Of a stretch of 64,000 nt of DNA, positions 10,384 to 29,539 are shown in pieces. Position numbers and translations under genes: made by a program. Numbering within the stretch: the first letter of the stretch is position 1; every line of letters starts with the position of its first letter. The notes under the pieces are model-generated. The model saw only the letters and a program-made list of their open reading frames with translations, had not been told where the DNA came from and made no database searches. The stretch comes from Acetatifactor sp. (GTDB taxonomy: Bacteria > Bacillota > Clostridia > Lachnospirales > Lachnospiraceae): NCBI GenBank assembly GCA_041838515.1, contig JBGYPP010000018.1, forward strand, positions 25,034 through 89,033. The letters are read 5' to 3'.

Positions 10384-11952
10384 TTATCTGGAACGGGGGG
10401 CCTCCCTGTATTCTGAGGGGGTGAGCCCTGTCATCTTCTTGAACAATTTGCCAAAATAATGGCTGTCGCCATATCCCACCCGGGCGGCTATGCCTTGAAT
10501 TTTTTGGCTTGGATCCTGGAGGAATTCCTTGGCCTTGTCCAGGCGGTATTCTGTCAGATATTGATTGAGGGTGCTGCCGGTTTCTTGTTTGAACAGTGTG
10601 CAGACATAGGAGGCGGACAGATAGACATGGCCGCTGATATCCTGTATGGATAAACCTTCACTGTGATAATGGGTGGATATATAAGCCTTGATCTTGGCCA
10701 CCACCCTGCCCGCATCTCCCTGGGAGGAGATCTGGCTGCTCCAGCGCTGCAGCCGCTGGCAGGCTACCTGGTGCAGGGAGGCCAGGCTGGGAGATTCCAG
10801 CAAATGCCCCCAGGCCTCTGACGGACTCTCCGTCTGGGCCGGCATACGGCTTTTGCTCTGTCGCTCCTCCAGTATATCCAGCAGGCGGAAATAATATGCC
10901 TTGGCCTGGTGGGGCAGGGGATGGGGCGGCGCTTGAAACAGAGCGAAGACCTGATCCAACAATAGCTGGGCCTGCTTGGCATCCTGCTGCAGCAGGGACT
11001 CCCGAAAGCGTGGGGGAATGGTGGAGAGAACCTCTTCTCTTTGCTCCAAGCCGGGAGCATCCGGCTCCGGCTCTCCATAGAAATGTAGGCTGCCAGTCGG
11101 GGAGAAAAAGGCTTTTTGCAGGGCCAATACGCCGCAGGTATAGGATTCCGGACACTGGCCGATGCTATTCTGCACCGGGCCTATGGCCAGGTGGAAATCT
11201 CTTGTGTGTCCAGACAAATGGGAGCAAAATTCCTCGGCTAGGGAGAGGATTTTTTCCCTGTCCGGAGGGGAGAGGGACCACAGATGAAAGATCCAGAGAT
11301 GGGGTTGACGCAGGAAAAAAATGTGCCCAAAGTCATATTTTTCGCATAAGAATTCCATAATATTTGGGGGTGCATCCCCGTTTTCCTCTGTAGAAAAATA
11401 GCTGTACACAGGCAGAATCATGGTAAAAAAATAGTATTTTTTCTCAGTCAAAAAAAGCAAATCCGCATCGGAGAGCAAGCCTATTATAGAAGATTCATCA
11501 GAGAATTTTGTTAACCTTGATGCCAGGATTTCTCGGGAGCGGGATAGGGAAGTGGTGATTTTATCCCGGTTTTCCCTGTGCTTTTTTACATGGGATATGG
11601 CCTCTTTTAGAGCCTCCTCCAGTTCCGCAGGATCTATGGGTTTTTCCACATAGCTAAGGGCCTTGAGGCGTATGGCGGCCTTGAGATAGGCCTTGTCTGA
11701 GTATCCGCTCATAAAGATAATGGGCATTTCCGGCCGCAGCGCCTGCAAGCGGCTGGCCAGGGATATGCCGTCCATGCGGGGCATGCGTATATCGCTCAGC
11801 AATATGTCCGGCATGGCAGCAGAGGCCATGTGCAGCGCATCCAGGCCGTCCACAGCGGTCTGCACCTGCTCTATGCCCAGCTGTCTCCAGGGTAAAATCT
11901 GGGATATGCCCTCCCGCGTCAGCTTTTCATCGTCCACGATTAACAGCCGCAT
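10384..11952 (-). CDS. response regulator with AraC-type HTH output (YesN-like)
   Basis: MRLLIVDDEKLTREG...DILLSDIRMPRMDG is a receiver domain. C-terminal ...YLSASYVCTLFKQETGSTLNQYLTEYRL...IAARVGYGDSHYFGKLFKK is an AraC HTH. AAGGAGGGAGAA SD before the second ATG (11952). Confidence 0.85.
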   Translation of the reverse strand: MRLLIVDDEKLTREGISQILPWRQLGIEQVQTAVDGLDALHMASAAMPDILLSDIRMPRMDGISLASRLQALRPEMPIIFMSGYSDKAYLKAAIRLKALSYVEKPIDPAELEEALKEAISHVKKHRENRDKITTSLSRSREILASRLTKFSDESSIIGLLSDADLLFLTEKKYYFFTMILPVYSYFSTEENGDAPPNIMEFLCEKYDFGHIFFLRQPHLWIFHLWSLSPPDREKILSLAEEFCSHLSGHTRDFHLAIGPVQNSIGQCPESYTCGVLALQKAFFSPTGSLHFYGEPEPDAPGLEQREEVLSTIPPRFRESLLQQDAKQAQLLLDQVFALFQAPPHPLPHQAKAYYFRLLDILEERQSKSRMPAQTESPSEAWGHLLESPSLASLHQVACQRLQRWSSQISSQGDAGRVVAKIKAYISTHYHSEGLSIQDISGHVYLSASYVCTLFKQETGSTLNQYLTEYRLDKAKEFLQDPSQKIQGIAARVGYGDSHYFGKLFKKMTGLTPSEYREAPRSR

Positions 11953-16865: not shown

Positions 16866-17186
16866 GTGGCGCATATGGTGAAAATGTTTGTCATGCAATT
16901 ATACCCCGGAATGGAGGAGGAGTACGAGAAACGTCATAAGGATCTGTGGCCGGAGATGGTGGAGATGATACACGCCCATGGAGGAAAGAATTATTCCATA
17001 GCCTTAGATCCGGAGAGCCTAAAGCTCTTTGGCTATATAGAGATAGAGGATGAGCAGCTCTGGGCACGGGGGGCGGACACGGCCATCAACCGCCGCTGGT
17101 GGGATTATATGGCGGATATCATGGAAACCAATGAGGACAATTCGCCCGTGGCCAGGGATCTGCGGTTGTTGTTTCATTTGGATTAG
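16866..17186 (+). CDS. rhaM: L-rhamnose mutarotase
   Basis: About 104 aa. ...YPGMEEEYEKRHKDLWPEMVEMIHAHGGKNYSI...WWDYMADIMETNEDNSP matches the RhaM/YiiL family. The start could be GTG 16866 or ATG 16875. Confidence 0.85.
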   Translation: MAHMVKMFVMQLYPGMEEEYEKRHKDLWPEMVEMIHAHGGKNYSIALDPESLKLFGYIEIEDEQLWARGADTAINRRWWDYMADIMETNEDNSPVARDLRLLFHLD

Positions 17187-17236
17187 GGGGGAGGCCCGGA
17201 TAAGGGCGAAAGAAAGACCGGAATTTTTTGGAATTG

Positions 17237-17278
17237 GGGCTGTCGCACTAACTAAGTTAGCGCGATGCCCTTTTTTTT
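17237..17278 (+). terminator. intrinsic terminator after rhaM
   Basis: Imperfect GC-rich hairpin ggggctgtcgcactaac...gttagcgcgatgccc followed by T8. Confidence 0.6.
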
Positions 17279-17290
17279 ATACAAAGTTAA

Positions 17291-17335
17291 GGGGGTGTTG
17301 CAGTAACGATTTTTAATCGTTACTGCAACACCCCC
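17291..17335. terminator. perfect 21-bp stem / 3-nt loop hairpin between convergent genes
   Basis: gggggtgttgcagtaacgatt-ttt-aatcgttactgcaacaccccc. It lies 40 nt past the stop of the minus-strand DUF2812 gene. Confidence 0.5.
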
Positions 17336-17375
17336 AGTTTTGTTGGAGAATATTGGCGCCGGGGTTAAAGTGTGC

Positions 17376-17924
17376 TTATTCCCAGATCCTGGCCTCCTCC
17401 TGCTCCGGGGCATATTTTCTCCGTCTGCGCAGGCCCTGGAGGAAAAAGGCGCTGCCGGAGATCATCAATCCGCCGGCTATGGCCACAGTGATCCACAGAG
17501 GCAGGCCCCGGGAGGGGGCAAAGAACAGTGCCTGCGCCAGCGCAAAGAGGGCCAGCATGCACTGGGATATGCCCAGGGCAAAAAAATGCGCATTGGCCCT
17601 GTGCAGCTGTTTGGACAGATGGCTTTTTTCGCTGTAGAGTTCCAGCGGTCCGTCAGCCCGGTTCTTCCGCAGATACAGCCTGCCGCCGTAGGAGGCTGCC
17701 ACGGATATGCCCATCTCTTCCAGAAATGCCATATCATTTCTTTTCTTGGCGCCGGTATATGCGGGGAGGTCTATCTTGTAGATGTACTCTGCCGGCGACA
17801 TATCCTCAAACACATATTCTCCACTGTGATAAGCGGTGAGCATCAAGCCCCTGCTTCCCTGCTCGTTCAGCCATTCTTCTTCCTTTTGGATATCCAAAAA
17901 GGTTTTTTTGATATGGGTTTTCAT
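17376..17924 (-). CDS. DUF2812 family membrane protein (usual partner of PadR regulators)
   Basis: FLDIQKEEEWLNEQGSRGLMLT...EYIYKIDL...DGPLELYSEKSHLSKQLHR followed by two TM helices. 4-nt overlap with the upstream PadR gene. Confidence 0.75.
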   Translation of the reverse strand: MKTHIKKTFLDIQKEEEWLNEQGSRGLMLTAYHSGEYVFEDMSPAEYIYKIDLPAYTGAKKRNDMAFLEEMGISVAASYGGRLYLRKNRADGPLELYSEKSHLSKQLHRANAHFFALGISQCMLALFALAQALFFAPSRGLPLWITVAIAGGLMISGSAFFLQGLRRRRKYAPEQEEARIWE

Positions 17925-18247
17925 AAGCTGTCTCCTGTATAATTTGCCGCATTGTGCAGCATTTCTTCCAGACGTATGCGCTCCTTTTCAAAGAATTGCC
18001 TGCCTGTGTCCGTGATAAGATATGCGATCTTTCTGTCCTGGGGATGCTCCTCCATAGCCCGTATCCATCCCTTTTTTTCTAAGGTATCCAAAGCCCCGTA
18101 GAGGGAGCCGGCGCCCAACTGCACCCGCCCGCTTGTCATCCGCGCTATGTCCTTCATCAGGGCATAACCGTGTGCTGGTTGGTGCAGCCGCAGCAGGATG
18201 TAAAAGACGGATTCTGTGAGAGCGCCGCTGTTGGCTGATCTGCCCAT
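17921..18247 (-). CDS. PadR family transcriptional regulator
   Basis: LTESVFYILLRLHQPAHGYALMKDI...GSLYGALDTLEKKGWI is a winged-HTH PadR signature. AGGAGG SD present. Confidence 0.9.
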   Translation of the reverse strand: MGRSANSGALTESVFYILLRLHQPAHGYALMKDIARMTSGRVQLGAGSLYGALDTLEKKGWIRAMEEHPQDRKIAYLITDTGRQFFEKERIRLEEMLHNAANYTGDSL

Positions 18248-18272
18248 ATGGCCTCCTTTCTAGCTACGCTTT

Positions 18273-18284
18273 TCGATATATCGA
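18273..18284. promoter_or_regulatory. perfect 12-bp palindrome TCGATATATCGA in the PadR/cassette divergent intergenic region (candidate operator)
   Basis: Read directly. Sits about 25 nt upstream of the PadR start codon. Confidence 0.3.
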
Positions 18285-18391
18285 TATTTGTAATAGGCGT
18301 CAAGCTGGGATGTATTGACGAAAAAAGTGAATGCATAAATGAAAAATTAGCAAAAAATAACAAACAAACAATGAAAATGTATTTATTGTTA

Positions 18392-18420
18392 TTGAAAAGG
18401 CACAGTAATTTTGATAAGGT
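18392..18420 (+). promoter_or_regulatory. candidate sigma-A promoter for the low-GC cassette (TTGAAA-17-TAAGGT)
   Basis: Hexamers with a 17-nt spacer, about 45 nt upstream of the SD+ATG at 18467. Confidence 0.3.
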
Positions 18421-18498
18421 ATGAGTGAAACCTGGGAACAATTCATAAATGAAGTAGGGAGTATGTATGAAAAGGATTTTTAGAATGCTTGTCGCGTT

Positions 18499-18972
18499 TT
18501 GCTGATTTCATGTCTGGGTTGTGGCATTTTTAACTCTGTACAAGTACAAGCACAGATCATGAGAAAACCTGTAGTGAAAGCTTGGCCTGGTAGGCCAGGA
18601 GGGAATGGGGATGGTTCTGAGGAGTGGCTTAAAGGGAATTATGGCGAAACAAATGGGGCCTTTCGATTGGTTGGGTCTTGCTCGGGAATAGTATCAGATC
18701 TTGTTTCTAGAGAAAGAGCATCTCGTAGCATTCGTTTTGCTATTGTGGGTCTTTTGGGTGGAAATTGTCTGCCTGGAACAAGTAAACTGGTGAAATTAGG
18801 GTATGTTACTGTTCTGATCATTGCAGAAGCGGTGTCTGGAGAATACGAAGGAAATGATTTTCGGAGTGAAACATATATTTCAGGCAGGTGTATGAAAACA
18901 ATCATAAAAACCTATGAATACAAAAATTATACAGAGCACAAAAAAACATATGTTAAGTGGACGAAATGGTGA
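18499..18972 (+). CDS. hypothetical secreted/lipoprotein-like protein, cassette A gene 1; the 5' end appears frameshifted relative to an SD+ATG at 18467
   Basis: GGGAG-N7-ATG at 18467 encodes MKRIFRMLVAFC* and stops at 18505. The listed ORF continues in the -1 frame as LLISCLGCGIFNSVQVQAQ..., so joined they read as a signal peptide. The C-terminal about 45 aa are paralogous to ORF 19249..19419. Confidence 0.5.
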   Translation: MLISCLGCGIFNSVQVQAQIMRKPVVKAWPGRPGGNGDGSEEWLKGNYGETNGAFRLVGSCSGIVSDLVSRERASRSIRFAIVGLLGGNCLPGTSKLVKLGYVTVLIIAEAVSGEYEGNDFRSETYISGRCMKTIIKTYEYKNYTEHKKTYVKWTKW

Positions 18973-19235
18973 AAATAATGGAAAAGTATTTGCTGAATTC
19001 CATGCAAGCTTTTTATCTAATCATGTTGATTTTGGGGTACTTCTATGATTACCCTGTGGAAGCTGTTTTTTTTGTATTTATATTTGTGCATTTGATGGAA
19101 ATGGGTTTTTTTGTCTTAATACGTAACAAGGGAAAAAGGGATTTTTCTGAACTCTTTGCCAGCCTGGTGGTGGTTGTCTTTTTGATGGTGTGGATGGCAT
19201 TGCAAGTGTTGGTATTTAGCGGAGTGGTGGCCTGA
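18957..19235 (+). CDS. small 3-TM membrane protein, cassette A gene 2 (translationally coupled)
   Basis: ATG 18966 overlaps the upstream stop (ATGGTGA). About 89 aa with three hydrophobic segments. Paralogous architecture to 19404..19667. Confidence 0.55.
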   Translation: MDEMVKIMEKYLLNSMQAFYLIMLILGYFYDYPVEAVFFVFIFVHLMEMGFFVLIRNKGKRDFSELFASLVVVVFLMVWMALQVLVFSGVVA

Positions 19236-19248
19236 AAGGAGAAAAGAA

Positions 19249-19419
19249 ATGAGAAAAAATATGGAAATAAAGGGCAGCATTGGGTCTGCAATAGAAGGTA
19301 ATGATGATAAATACACAACATCCATTTCTGGAAGATGTATGAAAACGGAGATAACCACATATGAATTGAAAAAGGATACTGGCTATAGGTATTCTTATAT
19401 CCGGTGGACGAGATGGTAA
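19249..19419 (+). CDS. 56-aa hypothetical protein, cassette B gene 1 (below the ORF-track cutoff)
   Basis: AAAGGAG SD, then ATG 19249. Product: MRKNMEIKGSIGSAIEGNDDKYTTSISGRCMKTEITTYELKKDTGYRYSYIRWTRW. Shares EGND...ISGRCMKTxIxTYExK...Y..WTxW with the C-terminus of ORF 18499..18972. Confidence 0.5.
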   Translation: MRKNMEIKGSIGSAIEGNDDKYTTSISGRCMKTEITTYELKKDTGYRYSYIRWTRW

Positions 19420-19667
19420 AGAGAGTCGCAGAATCCTTGTTGCTAAAGTCAAGCAATCTGATTTTTATCCTTTCCTTGCTGTGGTTGCAGGAGGAAAGGC
19501 AGGAATACCGATGGGCCTGTCTGTATGTCTTTGACGTCTGCCTGGCCAGCAGTATTTTTTACCTGGCGACAAGAAAGGCCGGCGAGGTGGACAAAAAGAA
19601 AATTGTGCAGATGTTGCTTTTTTGCATAGGCATACTGGCCTGGTATTATTATGGGCCTTGGACGTAG
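19404..19667 (+). CDS. small 3-TM membrane protein, cassette B gene 2 (translationally coupled)
   Basis: ATG 19413 overlaps the upstream stop (ATGGTAA), the same geometry as cassette A. About 84 aa with three hydrophobic segments. Confidence 0.55.
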   Translation: MDEMVKRVAESLLLKSSNLIFILSLLWLQEERQEYRWACLYVFDVCLASSIFYLATRKAGEVDKKKIVQMLLFCIGILAWYYYGPWT

Positions 19668-19704
19668 AGGGGCCAAGGATTCTATAGCATATGGCTGGGG
19701 GGGA

Positions 19705-19747
19705 GCGCGCGCCGGAGCTGGTGTATGGCCTGGCGCGCATTTTTTTC
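19705..19747 (+). terminator. intrinsic terminator closing the low-GC island
   Basis: gcgcgcc...ggcgcgc stem followed by attttttt. Confidence 0.55.
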
Positions 19748-19918
19748 GTGAAGGCTGGGGGTATGCAATCCCTTTTCGCTCTGTATATGCCTGTGCCGTA
19801 CACCCAAGGCCGCCTTGCAATTTCCCCTATTTTTCGGTATAGTTTCTTCATATGGCGAGGGGTCAATCTCGCCTGGGCGGCAGAGTTTTGTCAGGCGGAG
19901 CCAGGAATAGGAGAGATT

Positions 19919-22900
19919 ATGTTCGATAAAGTGAATCCCAATTTGCATTTCGTGGAAAATGAAAAGGCCATAGAGGCCTTGTGGCGGGAGAGGGATGTCT
20001 TTCGCAAGAGTATGGATATGCGCAAGGGTGGGCCTTGCTTTACCTTTTATGACGGGCCGCCTACGGCCAATGGCAAGCCCCATATAGGGCATGTGGAAAC
20101 CCGCACCATCAAGGATATGATCCCCAGGTACAGGGCCATGAAGGGGGCCTATGTGCCCCGCAAGGCGGGCTGGGATACCCACGGCCTGCCGGTGGAGCTG
20201 GAGGTGGAGAAGCTGCTGGGTCTGGATGGCAAGGAGCAGATAGAGGAATACGGCCTGGCGCCCTTTATAGACAAGTGCAAGGAGAGCGTTTGGAAGTATA
20301 AGGGCATGTGGGAGGATTTCTCCGCCACAGTGGGATTTTGGGCGGATATGGACAATCCTTATGTAACCTATCACGATGATTATATAGAGTCTGTGTGGTG
20401 GGCCCTGCGCAAGATTTGGGATCAGGGTCTTTTGTACAAGGGATTCAAGATCGTTCCCTATTGCCCCCGCTGCGGCACGCCCCTCTCCAGCCATGAGGTG
20501 GCCCAGGGGTACAAGGACGTGAAAGAGCGTTCGGCCATAGTCCGCTTCCCCTTGGTAGACGAGGATGCGTACATACTGGCCTGGACCACCACGCCCTGGA
20601 CCCTGCCCTCCAATGTGGCCCTGTGCGTCAATCCCCAGGAGGCCTACGCCAAGGTGAAGGCGGCAGACGGCAAGGTGTATTACCTGGCCCAGGCTCTGTT
20701 GGATGCGGTTTTGGGCGGCATACCCAGGGAGGAGGGGCAGCCGGCCTATACCCTGTTGTCTGCTTGCCAGGGCAAGGATTTGGAGCATAGGGAGTACAAG
20801 CCCTTGTTTGGAGCGGCGGCAAAAATTGCCGCCCAGCAGGGCAAGAAGGGCTTCTTTGTCACCTGTGATGGGTATGTAACCCTGACAGACGGCACTGGCG
20901 TGGTGCATACGGCGCCGGCCTTTGGTGAGGACGATGCGCGCATAGGCCGCCTGTATGACCTGCCCTTTGTCCAGCTGGTGGACGGCAAGGGCGAGATGAC
21001 GGCGGATACGGATTACGCCGGTATGTTTTGCAAGGAGGCGGATGGGGCCATACTCAAGGATTTGGATGCCTGGGGGCTGCTCTTTGCCGCTCCCAAGTTT
21101 GAGCACAGCTATCCCCATTGCTGGCGCTGCGACACGCCGCTGATCTACTACGCCCGGGAGAGCTGGTTCGTACAGATGAGCGCCGTCAAGGACAGGCTTA
21201 TAGCCAATAACAATACCATCAACTGGATACCCCCCTCCATAGGCAAGGGGCGTTTTGGGGATTGGCTGGAGAATATCCAGGACTGGAGCATATCCCGCAA
21301 CCGGTATTGGGGCACGCCGCTGAATGTCTGGGAATGCGCCTGTGGCCATACCCATGCCGTGGGCAGCCGGCAGGAACTGGCGGAGCTGTCAGGCAAGCCG
21401 GAGTATGCCCAGGTGGAGCTGCACAGGCCCTATATAGATGAAGTAGAATTTCCTTGTCCCAAGTGCGGTCAGAGCATGCGGCGGGTGCCGGAGGTGATAG
21501 ACTGCTGGTTTGATTCCGGGGCCATGCCCTTTGCCCAGCACCACTATCCCTTTGAAAATAAGGAGCTTTTTGAAAGCCAATTCCCGGCGCAGTTTATCTC
21601 CGAGGCTGTGGACCAGACCCGGGGATGGTTCTACTCCCTGCTGGCCATATCCACACTGCTCTTTGACAAGGCCCCTTATGAAAATGTGCTGGTGATGGGC
21701 CATGTGCAGGACGAAAACGGCCAGAAGATGAGCAAGTCCAAGGGCAATGCCGTGGATCCCTTTGAGGCCCTGGAAACCTATGGCGCCGACGCCATACGCT
21801 GGTATTTCTACACCAGCTCCGCCCCCTGGCTGCCCAAGCGTTTCTCGGGCAAGTTGGTGATGGAGGGCCAGCGCAAGGTCATGGGCACGCTGTGGAATAC
21901 CTATGCCTTTTTCGTATTGTACGCCAATATAGACGGCTTTGACCCCAAGGCGCACCGCCTGGAGCCGGAAAAGCTGGGGGTGATGGATAGGTGGCTGCTC
22001 TCCAGGCTGTACAGCACGGTGGCTTCTGTGGATGCGGATTTGGAGCGTTATGCCATACCCGAGGCCGGCCGCGCCATAGCCGAGTTCGTGGACGGCATGA
22101 GCAACTGGTATGTGCGCCGCAGCCGGGAGCGCTTCTGGGCCAAGGGCATGGAGCAGGACAAGATCAATGCGTATATGACGCTGTATACGGCGCTGGTGGA
22201 GCTGTGCAAGCTGGCGGCGCCTATGATACCCTTTATCACCGAGGCCATATACCAGAATCTGGTGTGCAAGGCCGATGCCCAGGCTCCGGAGAGCGTACAT
22301 CTGTGCGATTATCCCCAGGCCAGGCCGGAGCTGACAGATACCGCCCTGGAGGCGGATATGGCCCTGCTGCTGGATCTGGTGGTGCTGGGCCGTGCCTGCC
22401 GCAATGAGGCGCTGATCAAAAACCGTCAGCCTGTGGCCACCCTCTATGTGGCCGGGGATCAGGAACTGCCGGATTTCTGTGTGGACATACTTAAGGAGGA
22501 GTTGAATGTCAAGCAGGTGGAGCTGACCCGGGATGCAGGCGCTTTTGCCAACTACAGCTTTAAGCCCCAACTGCGCACTCTGGGGCCGAAGTATGGCAAG
22601 AGGCTGGGCCTGATACAGAAAGCGCTGGCCGCCCTGGAGGGCAATGCCGCCATGGCGGAGTTGGAGAGGGAGGGCGCCATACGCTTGGATTTGGACGGGG
22701 AGGAGGTACGTCTGGCCCGGGAGGATCTGTTGATAGAAACCGGCCGCAAGGAGGGATTTATCAGCGCCTGCGAGGGCGGGCATACAGTGGTGCTGGATAT
22801 ACGCCTCAGCCAGGATTTGCTGGAGGAGGGATATGTGCTGGAGCTGATCTCCAAGATACAGACCATGCGCAAGGAGGCGGATTTTGAGGTTACAGACCAT

Positions 22901-28257: not shown

Positions 28258-29007
28258 CTAGGTCTGGGGCAGGCTTCCGGTTGGAGCGTGCCGGTAGTAG
28301 TTCTCCTCTATGACCTGCTGGACATAGCGGCCGGGCTGACGGCGCTGTTCCTTTTCCAAGCGTTCCAGATATATGGGTTGGCCGTAGACCAGTATGACCT
28401 TGGCCGGCCGCACCATGGGCATATGGTCCTCGAACATGGCATGGGAGCCTATGATGCTGATGGGTATGACAGGGACACGGGCCTTTTCGGCCATTTTGAA
28501 ACTGCCCTCATGAAAGGGCAGAAAATCCTGGCCGCTTTTGTTGCGGGTGCCCTCGGGGAAGATGCACATGGATATGCCCCTCTGGATCTGCTCGGCCCCA
28601 GTCAATATAGTGCGGAAGCCCTGCTTTACATCCTTGCGGTCCAGGAAGAGGCAGTATATGCCCCGCATCCAATCCCTGAGCAGAATATAGCGCAGCATCT
28701 CCTTTTTGGCCACATAACCGGTGATGGAGGGCATATGCACGCAAGTGAGGAGGATGTCAAAGTAGCTGCGGTGGTTGGCCACATAGAGCACGGATTCTCC
28801 CTGGGGCAGATGCTCCCTACCCTCTATAATCACCTCCACGCCACTGATCCGGAGTATGCAGCGGAAAGCCCATTGGACTATGGCAAAATAGGCCTTATCT
28901 CTCCAGCCGGGATTCCACAGGCCCACCAAGGGCAGCAAGAGCAGCAGGGGTATGCTCAAAAGCAGAAAGCTGCCCAGGAAAAGGGCGATGAGCAAAAAAC
29001 GTATCAT
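28258..29007 (-). CDS. plsC: 1-acyl-sn-glycerol-3-phosphate acyltransferase
   Basis: N-terminal TM, NHRSYFD (HX4D) and FPEGTR motifs. Confidence 0.9.
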   Translation of the reverse strand: MIRFLLIALFLGSFLLLSIPLLLLLPLVGLWNPGWRDKAYFAIVQWAFRCILRISGVEVIIEGREHLPQGESVLYVANHRSYFDILLTCVHMPSITGYVAKKEMLRYILLRDWMRGIYCLFLDRKDVKQGFRTILTGAEQIQRGISMCIFPEGTRNKSGQDFLPFHEGSFKMAEKARVPVIPISIIGSHAMFEDHMPMVRPAKVILVYGQPIYLERLEKEQRRQPGRYVQQVIEENYYRHAPTGSLPQT

Positions 29008-29193
29008 GGCCGGTCCTCTCTGTCAAAATGATTTCGTCAAAACTATACAAAAGCAAAAGGGAAAAAAACATATACTTGGCATTTTATCACAAATCTAAGG
29101 CCGGTGTCAAAGAGCATAAGCGCTGATAGAGTGAGAAAAATCCAGGGGAGTCAAATATGGCCAAGTAAAGAAGAAAAAAATTGTCTGAGCCTA

Positions 29194-29222
29194 TTGACAA
29201 GACCTGGATATGCTCCTATACT
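29194..29222 (+). promoter_or_regulatory. consensus-like promoter of the acpP-fab operon (TTGACA-17-TATACT)
   Basis: TTGACA at 29194-29199, 17-nt spacer, TATACT at 29217-29222. Confidence 0.6.
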
Positions 29223-29229
29223 AACCATG

Positions 29230-29248
29230 TATTTTGAATATCAAAATA
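29230..29248. promoter_or_regulatory. FabT-box-like palindrome TATTTTGA-ata-TCAAAATA immediately downstream of the -10
   Basis: Perfect 8+8 inverted repeat with a TTTGA/TCAAA core. A MarR/FabT-like repressor gene ends the same operon. Confidence 0.55.
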
Positions 29249-29305
29249 TTTGAAATCCATAAGAAATGGCATCCAGCCAGAAAAAACAAAAAAAGGAGAG
29301 TAGAA

Positions 29306-29539
29306 ATGCTGGAGAAAATCAAAGAGATCATGGGCGCGCAGTTGACGGTGGATGTTGCGGACATTACGGAGAAATCTTCCTTTAAGGATGATTTGGGTAT
29401 TGATTCTTTGGATTTGTTTGAGCTGATCATGGCTTTTGAGGAGGAGTACGGCATAGAGATCCCTGCCGAGGAGCTGGAGGAGATCAAGACCGTAGGTGAT
29501 ATGATGGCGTATTTGCAGAGCAAGGGCATAGAGGCCTAA
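29306..29539 (+). CDS. acpP: acyl carrier protein
   Basis: 77 aa with the DLGIDSLDLFELIMAFEEEYGIEI phosphopantetheine-site motif. AAAGGAGAG SD. Confidence 0.95.
   Translation: MLEKIKEIMGAQLTVDVADITEKSSFKDDLGIDSLDLFELIMAFEEEYGIEIPAEELEEIKTVGDMMAYLQSKGIEA

What the first reader, a model, noticed from the sequence alone, without database searches (positions are those of the whole stretch)
18250..19700. Low-GC island carrying a tandemly duplicated two-gene cassette: a small protein ending ...ISGRCMKT.I.TYE.K...Y..WT.W, coupled to a 3-TM mini-membrane protein
Seen in sequence: between the PadR/DUF2812 pair and ileS the composition drops sharply. Single 60-nt lines I counted gave 25% and 42% GC, versus 62% for a line inside ileS.

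The island holds two copies of the same module. Cassette A is ORF 18499..18972, whose C-terminus is ...EGNDFRSETYISGRCMKTIIKTYEYKNYTEHKKTYVKWTKW. A roughly 89-aa 3-TM protein follows, and its ATG overlaps the stop as ATGGTGA. Cassette B is an unlisted 56-aa ORF (19249..19419: MRKNMEIKGSIGSAIEGNDDKYTTSISGRCMKTEITTYELKKDTGYRYSYIRWTRW). A roughly 84-aa 3-TM protein follows with the same overlap geometry (ATGGTAA). Cassette B's first gene is only the shared C-terminal module and has no signal peptide. Cassette A's first gene has a long N-terminal extension and a signal-peptide-like start. I recognise no family for any of the four proteins.

Inference: the architecture is a variable small protein plus a tightly coupled small polytopic membrane protein, duplicated, in a compositionally foreign patch. 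That pattern fits effector/immunity or bacteriocin/immunity type cassettes. The divergent PadR, a family often tied to membrane and antimicrobial stress, could control it.
Basis: partly seen in the sequence, partly recalled or inferred. Interest (0 to 1): 0.7.

Follow-up and report, generated by a model that had tools for sequence, protein, structure and literature searches.

The report
Decayed candidate bacteriocin-immunity gene island
A 1.4-kb foreign, low-GC patch carries two diverged copies of a rare, unannotated two-gene unit of Gram-positive bacteria (a secreted ~14-kDa protein plus a tiny membrane protein) that looks like a new antibacterial toxin/immunity pair; in this genome both toxin-like genes are damaged and both membrane genes are intact.

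Summary
Window 18330-19700 is 39% GC against 56% elsewhere, the lowest stretch in the 64 kb. It carries four same-strand ORFs in two cassettes with ATGGTRA stop/start overlaps.

Gene 1 belongs to a rare family: 49 clusters among 1.84 billion proteins. It has no Pfam, NCBIfam, PHROG or PADLOC match and no structural match. Family members have a Sec signal peptide, a nearly invariant box (AWPGRPGGNGDGSEEWLxGxYGExNGP), a variable semi-hydrophobic helical region, and a beta-meander ending YISGRCMKT..TY...KW.

A 70-105-aa 2-3-TM ORF follows gene 1 in every locus with readable downstream sequence, about 17 distinct types across Bacillota. Flanking genes are unrelated. The C. celatum copy is called viral by IMG/VR, and one contig carries plasmid Rep/Mob genes.

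Correction 1: A1's signal peptide is frameshifted in a T4 run. B1 is an internal-deletion relic.

Correction 2: A2 and B2 are not demonstrably homologous.

Damaged gene 1 with an intact partner recurs elsewhere. Partners diverge far faster than gene 1.

The best reading is a new Sec-dependent bacteriocin-like toxin with a membrane immunity protein, here reduced to an immunity-only island. This is inferred, not shown. The proposed PadR link is unsupported.

The parts
18330..18466 (+). AT-rich leader and presumed promoter region of the island. The left edge is approximate: 18248 to about 18325 is the padR promoter/operator.
   Evidence: GC is 36-38% here. The padR operator motif TTACA(A/G)ATA(T/A)CGATATATCG is shared with orthologues L047 and L049 and ends near 18296. 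The padR -35 element is at about 18316-18321. No consensus sigma-70 site was found on the + strand.
18467..18505 (+). Displaced 5' end of gene A1. ATG with SD (GGGAG) encodes MKRIFRMLVAFC*, the n-region and start of the h-region of the signal peptide. It is out of frame by one base with the rest of A1.
   Evidence: Read directly from the sequence. All 27 full-length homologues start with an MKK/MRK-type signal peptide. The sequence is identical in independent assemblies.
18499..18972 (+). Gene A1, the toxin-like gene 1 (157 aa as listed, TTG start). It has the N-box WPGRPGGNGDGSEEWLKGNYGETNG, a helical middle, and a C-terminal beta-meander ...YISGRCMKTIIKTYEYKNYTEHKKTYVKWTKW. Its signal peptide is crippled by the frameshift.
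   Evidence: AF2 model with pLDDT 69 overall and about 90 in the C-module. GC3 is 31%.
18966..19235 (+). Gene A2, the partner of A1. It is 89 aa with 3 predicted TM segments, and its ATG overlaps the A1 stop (ATGGTGA). Immunity-like.
   Evidence: No family match. An intact ORF.
19249..19419 (+). Gene B1, 56 aa. It is an internal-deletion relic of a second gene 1: MRKNME followed by the end of the last helix and the C-terminal beta-meander. It has no signal peptide, N-box or helices. A strong SD lies 13 nt after the A2 stop.
   Evidence: 48% identity to A1 residues 108-157, E 2e-14. It keeps all nearly invariant C-module residues. An analogous deletion form occurs in L044-46.
19413..19667 (+). 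Gene B2, the partner of B1. It is 84 aa with 3 predicted TM segments, and its ATG overlaps the B1 stop (ATGGTAA). Immunity-like. Its composition is close to the host's (GC3 62%).
   Evidence: There is a weak link to the L014-type partner subfamily (phmmer 4.5e-4 in a 17-sequence set).
19706..19746 (+). Terminator-like GC-rich hairpin (GCGCGCC...GGCGCGC) followed by T7. It probably marks the end of the four-gene transcript, ahead of the ileS promoter-like site at 19815-19843.
   Evidence: The fold z-score for the whole 96 nt is not significant, so this rests on the hairpin plus T-run pattern.

Best explanation
The island is a horizontally acquired pair of old, diverged cassettes of a rare, uncharacterised Bacillota two-gene module.

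GENE 1. It encodes a Sec-exported protein of about 14 kDa. It has a nearly invariant N-terminal box (AWPGRPGGNGDGSEEWLxGxYGExNGP), a variable Gly/Ala/Ser-rich semi-hydrophobic helical region, and a conserved four-stranded beta-sheet.

GENE 2. It is translationally coupled to gene 1 and encodes a fast-evolving 70-105-aa membrane protein with 2-3 TM segments.

MOST LIKELY MECHANISM (inferred). Gene 1 is a secreted, unmodified antibacterial protein, that is, a bacteriocin-like toxin. Its conserved box and beta-sheet would engage a conserved envelope target, and its helices would insert into the membrane. Gene 2 would be the producer's membrane immunity protein that intercepts the toxin.

STATE IN THIS GENOME. 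Both toxin-like genes are crippled. A1 has a 1-nt frameshift in its signal peptide. B1 has an internal deletion that leaves only 56 aa. Both partner genes are intact and still translationally coupled. The locus therefore most likely acts now as an immunity-only (orphan immunity) island. It would be read as one operon from the AT-rich leader to the hairpin at about 19706-19746.

SHOWN: the gene anatomy, family membership, partner linkage, foreign composition, the damage to A1 and B1, and the difference in evolutionary rates.

INFERRED: secretion, toxicity, immunity and operon structure.
For: 1. Signal-peptide-like N-termini occur in all full-length relatives. Mature size is 13-16 kDa.
2. A small 2-3-TM ORF follows gene 1 in every locus with readable downstream sequence, about 17 distinct module types. 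The ATGGTRA overlap recurs in L001, L016, L025, L027, L050-52, L060/61 and both window cassettes.
3. The module is autonomous and mobile.
   - Seventy-seven neighbouring genes share no recurrent Pfam family and are mostly housekeeping genes.
   - The same C. celatum segment occurs beside an integrase and prohead protease, in an IMG/VR viral contig, and on a 6.4-kb contig with Rep_1 and Mob_Pre.
   - Distribution across Clostridia, Lachnospiraceae, Erysipelotrichaceae, Carnobacteriaceae, Streptococcus and Anaerococcus is patchy.
   - Module GC is 28-40% in other hosts. In this 56%-GC host it is 39%.
4. Gene 1 is repeatedly inactivated while the partner stays intact: window A1, window B1, L041 (GNGDGS*E stop plus RPG deletion, in 11 contigs) and L044-46 (frameshift in an A7 run plus an internal deletion).
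5. The partner is hypervariable.
   - Median pairwise identity is 16% for partners against 38% for gene 1, and the partner is lower in 78 of 78 pairs.
   - In the L032 tandem repeat the gene 1 copies differ at 0 of 492 nt. The partner copies differ at 36 of 291 nt, with 20 nonsynonymous and 9 synonymous codon changes.
6. Tandem arrays with extra partner-like ORFs occur in the isolate Granulicatella balaenopterae. There the module lies directly downstream of a GHKL (HATPase_c_5) kinase and a LytTR response regulator. From established knowledge, this regulator type controls class II bacteriocin loci (Blp, Pln, Com).
7. The helical region is borderline hydrophobic: median maximum KD19 is 1.56, and 19 of 45 proteins reach 1.6 or more. 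In the AF2 model (pLDDT 80) it packs on a four-stranded sheet. This layout is compatible with a soluble form that can insert into a membrane.
Against: - There is no sequence or fold similarity to any known bacteriocin, toxin or immunity protein.
- Mature pI ranges from 4.6 to 9.7, so the protein is not uniformly cationic.
- An almost invariant 27-residue box is unusual for a diversifying toxin. It could instead indicate a housekeeping-type interaction.
- Identical gene 1 copies next to diverged partners (L032) is not classical toxin-immunity co-diversification.
- The kinase/LytTR neighbourhood is seen in only one locus.
- Partner homology across the family cannot be demonstrated.
- A1 might still be made from the TTG by termination-reinitiation, so 'immunity-only' is not proven.
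- All window-type sequences come from related samples.
Confidence: 0.5

Rival explanations
1. Non-antagonistic envelope module. Gene 1 is a secreted or surface protein that the small membrane partner anchors or receives. Its role would be self-directed, for example surface decoration, envelope maintenance, or signalling through the invariant N-box.
For: The N-box is extremely conserved (0.83 majority-residue frequency), as expected for a fixed interaction. The pI is not cationic. There is no similarity to toxins. Tight translational coupling suggests a stoichiometric complex.
Against: The family is very rare and patchy: 49 clusters in 1.84e9 proteins. The module occurs in mobile and foreign contexts. 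Gene 1 is repeatedly lost while the partner is kept. The partner is hypervariable. Tandem arrays with spare partner genes occur. All of these fit conflict systems better than housekeeping functions.
Confidence: 0.2
2. Mobile-element exclusion or defence cargo. The pair would be a prophage or plasmid 'moron' that blocks phage infection or conjugative entry at the envelope (superinfection exclusion), not an attack on other cells.
For: The C. celatum copy lies in a region with an integrase and a prohead protease (Peptidase_S78) that IMG/VR calls viral. One contig carries Rep_1 and Mob_Pre. B2 has a weak match to a PHROG 'moron' membrane protein (E 0.0055).
Against: tblastn found no hit in 50,697 phage records or 72,556 plasmid records. 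There was no PADLOC hit. Most loci are flanked by housekeeping genes with no element genes nearby. Only 1 of 2.9 million IMG/VR contigs carries the module.
Confidence: 0.12
3. B1 is not a relic. It would be a functional small cytoplasmic protein, a stand-alone C-module, that regulates or chaperones B2 or neutralises incoming gene-1-type proteins.
For: B1 keeps every nearly invariant C-module residue. It has a strong SD and an intact coupling junction. Short forms consisting of the C-module only also exist in L044-46.
Against: The C-module is extracellular in full-length proteins, whereas B1 has no signal peptide. The L044-46 short form keeps a signal-like segment and is itself frameshifted. 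In L041 the 59-aa 'short form' is clearly the tail of a gene with a nonsense mutation. Keeping the 3' end of gene 1 is explained sufficiently by the need to translate B2 through the ATGGTAA overlap.
Confidence: 0.12
4. A PadR-controlled membrane-stress operon. The divergent PadR/DUF2812 pair would sense envelope or antimicrobial stress and switch on the four-gene island.
For: The arrangement is divergent with a 219-nt intergenic region. A conserved PadR-type operator (TCGATATATCGA core) lies between the two units.
Against: The operator is conserved with PadR orthologues that have no module nearby (ICE-like contexts). It sits at padR's own -10/+1 region, about 170 nt from A1's SD. None of about 17 other module types has a PadR neighbour. 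The island is compositionally foreign to padR: GC3 is 31-49% for A1, A2 and B1 against 62% for padR.
Confidence: 0.08

Closest known systems
Class III non-lytic, Sec-dependent streptococcal bacteriocins with an adjacent membrane immunity factor (dysgalacticin DysA/DysI; streptococcin A-M57)
   Same: Both are unmodified proteins of tens of kDa exported through a Sec signal peptide. Both are carried on plasmids or other mobile DNA, and both have an adjacent gene for a membrane-associated immunity factor. Neither has a dedicated exporter or modification genes (PMC8308785, read).
   Different: No sequence relationship was found: there was no tblastn hit in PLSDB plasmids and no Pfam or NCBIfam hit. 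The mature protein here is smaller (about 14 kDa against 17-21.5 kDa). It has an invariant N-box and a predicted alpha/beta fold with no known match. No activity is known for it.
Pore-forming colicins and their 3-4-TM inner-membrane immunity proteins (for example colicin E1/Cei, colicin A/Cai); from my own knowledge
   Same: In both, a toxin with a hydrophobic or semi-hydrophobic helical hairpin shielded in a soluble fold is paired with a small polytopic membrane protein encoded next to it. The colicin immunity protein recognises the inserted helices within the membrane, and immunity specificity evolves quickly.
   Different: The phylum and export route differ. There is no Colicin-domain hit. 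The toxin here is about one quarter the size and has no receptor or translocation domains. The predicted fold is a beta-sheet plus helices, not a 10-helix bundle.
Lactococcin 972 family (PF09683), Sec-dependent class IId bacteriocins
   Same: Both have a Sec signal peptide, are unmodified and beta-rich with an aromatic-rich C-terminus ending in W, and are plasmid-borne in Firmicutes.
   Different: There is no Pfam hit at E up to 1. Lcn972 is about 7.5 kDa and purely beta. From my own knowledge, its immunity is an ABC-type system, not a 3-TM miniprotein.
Orphan immunity genes and immunity-gene arrays next to decayed toxin genes (class II bacteriocin loci, T7SS and CDI systems)
   Same: Both show intact immunity-like genes kept beside truncated or frameshifted toxin genes, tandem paralogues, and mosaic divergence of the immunity genes. 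An example is tandem T7SS immunity paralogues, PMC9484751, listed.
   Different: Here the toxin function itself is hypothetical, and the partners are not demonstrably homologous to each other.

Membership tests
Bacteriocin + cognate immunity pair (generic kind) | The structural gene product is exported (Sec signal or double-glycine leader) | tested here: met
   Family members have MKK-type n-regions, a hydrophobic core (KD12 of 1.6 or more) and an AxA-like end. This was judged by eye and by hydropathy, with no SignalP run. In the window itself A1's signal is frameshifted and B1 has none.
Bacteriocin + cognate immunity pair (generic kind) | The secreted product kills or inhibits related bacteria | not testable with these tools
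   This needs an activity assay. No literature mentions the motifs.
Bacteriocin + cognate immunity pair (generic kind) | An adjacent co-transcribed gene protects the producer | tested here: inconclusive
   The positional criterion is met in every locus examined, often with an ATGGTRA overlap. Protection itself is untested.
Bacteriocin + cognate immunity pair (generic kind) | Homology to a described bacteriocin or immunity family | tested here: not met
   Pfam, NCBIfam, PHROGs, PADLOC, the PDB sequence profile, and Foldseek against PDB and BFVD all gave nothing.
Lactococcin 972 family (PF09683) | Match to the family HMM | tested here: not met
   No Pfam family at E up to 1 for A1 or B1.
Dysgalacticin / streptococcin A-M57 (class III non-lytic) | Sequence similarity to DysA or ScnM57 | not tested
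   Their sequences were not at hand. Indirectly, tblastn of P0002 against 72,556 plasmid records found nothing, but I did not verify that pW2580 or pDN571 are in that collection.
Holin (reading of the 3-TM partner) | Match to a holin family, a highly charged C-terminal tail, and an adjacent endolysin | tested here: not met
   There was no holin hit in Pfam or PHROGs for A2 or B2. The C-termini are hydrophobic or aromatic (...VFSGVVA...YYYGPWT). No lysin is adjacent.
Cyt / volvatoxin-like pore-forming toxin fold | Significant structural superposition | tested here: not met
   3ron (Cyt1Aa) and 1vcy (VVA2) appear only as noise: E about 2.6 and TM about 0.18-0.19.
PadR regulon member | Conserved linkage to PadR and/or an operator in the module's own promoter | tested here: not met
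   No other module locus has a PadR neighbour. PadR-DUF2812 orthologues lack the module. The operator lies at padR's own promoter. Regulation in vivo is untested.
Gene-1 family defined here (N-box / C-module proteins) | N-box WPGRPGGNGDGSEE(W/Y/F) plus the C-module (Y)xSGRxxK..I.TY...Y..W | tested here: met
   A1 has both features (E 1e-46 to nearest relatives). B1 has only the C-module.

The most novel reading that the evidence does not exclude
This is a previously undescribed family of Sec-dependent protein bacteriocins of Bacillota. It has a new alpha/beta fold and a 27-residue invariant 'box', functionally comparable to the YGNGV pediocin box, that docks onto a conserved envelope target. 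Its hypervariable 3-TM immunity genes outlive the toxin genes and accumulate as orphan immunity islands. The window would be a snapshot of that end state in a high-GC host.
Probability: 0.4. Interest if true: 0.62.

Novelty: new variant of a known kind. Interest (0 to 1): 0.5.

Why it matters
If gene 1 is an antibacterial protein, it defines a new bacteriocin family. The family occurs in oral, gut and food Bacillota (Granulicatella, Streptococcus, Carnobacterium, Johnsonella, Roseburia, Anaerococcus, Clostridium celatum). Current bacteriocin-mining tools would not find it, because it has no HMM and no structural relative.

Its invariant N-terminal box would then point to a conserved and possibly exploitable envelope target.

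The repeated pattern of a dead toxin gene beside a live membrane partner gives a clean natural system for studying orphan immunity.

Two cultured strains carry intact copies: C. celatum DSM 1785 and G. balaenopterae DSM 15827. The hypothesis can therefore be tested directly.

For this genome the practical outcome is modest. It is a small foreign island of four hypothetical genes, two of them damaged.

Tried and rejected
- Known-family searches. Pfam, NCBIfam, PHROGs and PADLOC on all four proteins and two relatives gave nothing above noise.
- PDB sequence profile. No hit at E up to 10.
- Structure. Two AF2 models (pLDDT 69 and 80) were searched with Foldseek against PDB and BFVD. There was no hit at E below 0.01. 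The SpoIIAB, Cyt1Aa and VVA2 matches are noise.
- tblastn against annotated plasmids and phages found no match.
- A full-text search for the motifs found no paper.
- Assembly error as the cause of the A1 frameshift. This is unlikely, because the sequence is identical in the NCBI MAG and several Logan runs. All of them are from related samples, however.
- Island-less relatives to define the insertion site. The nearest DUF2812/PadR orthologues are only 59-63% identical and lie in unrelated ICE-like contexts, so no empty site was found.
- Recurrent neighbours (exporter, regulator, modification enzyme). None was found among 77 neighbouring proteins.
- Partner-family profile search. It returned 12 small unannotated proteins and no broader family. 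A2/B2 homology could not be established.
- T-box or other RNA element between the island and ileS. No credible Rfam hit.
- LytTR-type repeats upstream of the L017 module. Only one 14-nt direct repeat, at 23-nt spacing and upstream of a terminator-like hairpin, so it was not used.
- Circularity of the Rep/Mob contig L003 was not demonstrated.
- P0074, a 1017-aa repeat protein with GDCMKTQVFTY repeats, was judged a chance or low-complexity resemblance.
- L066 and L067 have frameshifts in both genes. They were not counted as decay examples, because I suspect (not verified) that they come from error-prone assemblies.
Full report
1. WHAT IS IN THE SEQUENCE

Between the divergent padR (17921-18247, minus strand) and ileS (start about 19920) lie four same-strand ORFs.
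- A1: 18499-18972.
- A2: 18966-19235. Its ATG lies inside ATGGTGA, overlapping the A1 stop.
- B1: 19249-19419. It has a strong SD, AAAGGAG, 13 nt after the A2 stop.
- B2: 19413-19667. Its ATG lies inside ATGGTAA, overlapping the B1 stop.

A GC-rich hairpin followed by a T7 run is at about 19706-19746. An ileS promoter-like site is at 19815-19843.

The composition drop is real. Positions 18250-19700 are 39.4% GC. All other 1400-nt windows of the 64 kb average 55.9% (sd 2.5, minimum 48.3), so this is the lowest stretch in the window. GC3 is 31% for A1, 49% for A2, 37% for B1 and 62% for B2. Neighbouring host genes have GC3 of 59-73%.

The C-terminus of A1 and B1 are clearly homologous: 48% identity over 50 aa, E 2e-14.

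A2 and B2 are not demonstrably homologous. BLASTP gives E 0.056, and profile and phmmer scores are at the level of shuffled sequences. They share length, position and three predicted TM segments.

At DNA level the two cassettes share only 63 nt at 75% identity plus the 17-nt junction. They are old paralogues, not a recent duplication.

2. A CORRECTION TO A1

The listed ORF starts at a TTG inside the hydrophobic core of a signal peptide and has no SD. Thirty-two nt upstream, an ATG with a GGGAG SD opens MKRIFRMLVAFC* in another frame. That short ORF stops at 18503-18505 and overlaps the TTG.

One extra T in the T4 run at 18497-18500 would give MKRIFRMLVAFLLISCLGCGIFNSVQVQAQ... This matches the MKK/MRK-type signal peptides of every full-length relative.

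The frameshifted sequence is identical in the NCBI MAG (GCA_041796785.1) and in several Logan assemblies from separate runs. A one-off assembly error is therefore unlikely, although the samples are related.

A1 is best described as a gene with a crippled export signal. Low-level reinitiation at the TTG cannot be excluded.

3. THE FAMILY OF GENE 1

A word-indexed search found 28 homologues of about 165 aa, none with a Pfam domain or an informative name. An exhaustive profile search of 1.84 billion cluster representatives found only 49. The family is therefore rare.

Alignments show the following regions, with majority-residue frequency in brackets.
- A signal peptide.
- A variable linker.
- A nearly invariant box, AWPGRPGGNGDGSEEWLxGxYGExNGP (0.83).
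- A variable Gly/Ala/Ser/Thr-rich helical region (0.39).
- A conserved C-module, YxGxYYxxxxYISGRCMKxVIxTYxxxNxTxxxxTYxxxxKW (0.58).

The Cys is replaceable by S, R, Q or K, so it is not essential.

The helical region is borderline hydrophobic. The median maximum 19-residue KD score is 1.56, and 19 of 45 proteins reach 1.6 or more. Mature proteins are 13-16 kDa with pI from 4.6 to 9.7.

AlphaFold models (pLDDT 69 for A1, 80 for P0002) give a four-stranded antiparallel sheet with the helices packed on one face. The N-box is predicted with lower confidence.

None of the following searches gave a credible match:
- Foldseek against PDB or BFVD;
- a PDB sequence profile;
- Pfam, NCBIfam, PHROGs or PADLOC;
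- tblastn against annotated plasmids and phages;
- a literature search for the motifs.

4. THE PARTNER AND THE MODULE

I examined loci from the look-up of encoding contigs, the GTDB genome scan, IMG/VR and the metagenome scan. These cover about 17 distinct module types from Clostridium celatum, Johnsonella, Granulicatella, Streptococcus and Carnobacteriaceae bins, Erysipelotrichaceae, Lachnospiraceae, Roseburia and Anaerococcus.

Wherever the downstream sequence was readable, gene 1 is followed at once by a 70-105-aa ORF with 2-3 hydrophobic segments. The same ATGGTRA overlap is frequent.

The partners share an architecture: a basic N-terminus, two TM segments, a short basic loop, a third TM segment and a short aromatic tail. 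They are barely alignable. Only the subgroup L014, L015, L016, L026 and L027 is detectably homologous.

Median pairwise identity is 16% for partners and 38% for gene 1. The partner is the less conserved of the two in 78 of 78 locus pairs.

The neighbours are unrelated, mostly housekeeping genes (FTHFS, GidA/GidB, MreB, RodA, ThyA, SecA, PrfB and others). No Pfam family recurs among them. The pair is thus a self-contained unit that has landed in different places.

In C. celatum the module lies in a region with an integrase and a prohead protease that IMG/VR calls viral. The same segment also occurs on a 6.4-kb contig with Rep_1 and Mob_Pre genes. Circularity of that contig was not shown.

Module GC in other hosts is 28-40%, at or below their flanks. 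The 56%-GC host of the window is an outlier, which fits acquisition from a low-GC donor.

5. PATTERNS THAT BEAR ON FUNCTION

(a) Gene 1 is repeatedly damaged while the partner ORF stays intact.
- Window A1 is frameshifted.
- Window B1 is MRKNME joined to the end of the last helix and the beta-meander. An in-frame internal deletion has removed the signal peptide, the N-box and the helices.
- L041 has a premature stop inside the box (GNGDGS*E) and a deletion of RPG. It was seen in 11 contigs.
- L044-46 has a frameshift in an A7 run of the signal n-region and an internal deletion of the N-box and helices.

(b) Tandem arrays occur elsewhere.
- In L032 the module is a ~920-bp direct repeat. The gene 1 copies are identical (0 of 492 nt differ). 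The partner copies differ at 36 of 291 nt, all within the central part, with 20 nonsynonymous and 9 synonymous codon changes.
- In the isolate Granulicatella balaenopterae DSM 15827, gene 1 is followed by two partner-like 74-aa ORFs and a second, truncated gene 1.

(c) In that isolate the array lies directly downstream of a GHKL/HATPase_c_5 kinase and a LytTR response regulator. From established knowledge, this regulator type controls class II bacteriocin loci (Blp, Pln, Com/Agr type). This is a single locus, and I found no convincing LytTR repeats there.

6. BEST EXPLANATION

The features listed below are the signature of a secreted antibacterial protein with its membrane immunity protein.
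- A Sec-exported small protein.
- A tightly coupled, fast-evolving polytopic miniprotein.
- Autonomy and mobility of the pair.
- Tandem arrays with spare partner genes.
- Toxin-like genes that decay while partners persist.

The closest analogues in function are two.
- Sec-dependent, plasmid-borne class III non-lytic bacteriocins with an adjacent membrane immunity factor, such as dysgalacticin/DysI (PMC8308785).
- Pore-forming colicins with 3-4-TM immunity proteins that recognise the inserted helical hairpin (from my own knowledge).

I propose the following mechanism, which is inferred. The invariant box and the sheet engage a conserved envelope component. The variable semi-hydrophobic helices act in the membrane. 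The partner intercepts them there.

In the window both toxin-like genes are disabled, so the island most likely serves as a two-gene orphan-immunity locus. Keeping the 3' end of B1, with its SD, is explained by the need to translate B2 through the overlap.

Evidence against this reading:
- there is no link to any known toxin;
- the pI is variable and not cationic;
- a 27-residue invariant box is unusual for an arms-race protein;
- L032 shows identical gene 1 copies with diverged partners, which is not classical co-diversification;
- there are no functional data at all.

I put the functional reading at about 0.5. I put the structural reading (a foreign, decayed, two-cassette copy of a conserved two-gene module) at above 0.85.

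7. THE PadR IDEA

The 12-bp palindrome TCGATATATCGA and the surrounding motif TTACA(A/G)ATA(T/A)CGATATATCG are conserved upstream of PadR orthologues of 59-60% identity. Those orthologues lie in ICE-like contexts without the module.

In the window the motif sits at padR's own promoter (18270-18296), about 170 nt from A1's SD. No other module locus has a PadR neighbour.

The adjacency therefore looks accidental. Regulation is not excluded but has no support.

8. VERDICT

Its interpretation as an effector/immunity pair is the best available reading but is not proven.

The copy in this window is degenerate.

Novelty: a new variant of a known kind, that is, a candidate new bacteriocin/immunity family with no sequence or structural relatives.

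Interest is moderate, at 0.5. Two cultured strains with intact copies make the hypothesis directly testable.

Noticed in passing
L032:3601-5495 (Erysipelotrichaceae MAG CAMCRE010000017.1): The module is a ~920-bp direct repeat with a 51-bp spacer. The gene 1 copies are identical (0 of 492 nt differ). All 36 differences fall in the central part of the partner gene, with 20 nonsynonymous and 9 synonymous codon changes. This mosaic suggests recombination or diversifying selection on the partner.
   Followed up: partly
L017:63-3344 (Granulicatella balaenopterae DSM 15827, NZ_FOGF01000070.1): An AgrC/BlpH-type kinase (HATPase_c_5) and a LytTR response regulator lie directly upstream of the module. 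After them come gene 1, two partner-like 74-aa ORFs, and a second gene 1 copy that ends after 91 aa. A 14-nt direct repeat with 23-nt spacing follows the regulator gene.
   Followed up: partly
window 18265-18325 (minus-strand padR promoter): The operator-like motif TTACAAATATCGATATATCGAA, with the palindromic core TCGATATATCGA, is conserved upstream of PadR orthologues in L047 and L049. It is probably the PadR autoregulatory site.
   Followed up: partly
L034/L035 compared with window 16866-17376: Beyond DUF2812, some assemblies of the same organism continue into dnaB, rplI and gdpP instead of rhaM and the sugar ABC transporter. This is either a strain-level rearrangement or a second copy of the PadR-DUF2812 unit. 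Orthologues of that unit are ICE cargo in Lachnospiraceae (L047).
   Followed up: no
window 18485-18512: If the A1 frameshift is repaired, the signal peptide contains L-I-S-C, a lipobox-like motif that other family members lack. It may be a coincidence.
   Followed up: no
window 19668-19920: No T-box leader or other Rfam element was detected upstream of ileS (E up to 1). There is only a terminator-like hairpin and a promoter-like site.
   Followed up: partly
window 17275-17350: A strong hairpin lies between the convergent rhaM-like gene and DUF2812. It produced spurious mir-883 Rfam hits on both strands. It is probably a bidirectional terminator.
   Followed up: no
window 19413-19667 compared with 18499-18972: B2 has host-like codon composition (GC3 62%), whereas A1 has GC3 31%. 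The two cassettes may have been resident for different lengths of time, or may come from different donors.
   Followed up: no
window about 11300-11600 and about 29000-29400: These are the only other 300-nt windows below 42% GC. The first lies in the linker region of a YesN/AraC-type response regulator. The second is the intergenic region plus the acyl-carrier-protein gene. Both look ordinary.
   Followed up: partly
P0074 (1017 aa, from the profile search): This repeat protein has 12 copies of ...GEITGDCMKTQVFTYSAVDDCGNKVSETVTYTWKV..., which resembles the C-module core (SGRCMKTVITTY). I judged it a chance or convergent beta-hairpin resemblance (E 2e-4, summed over the repeats).
   Followed up: no
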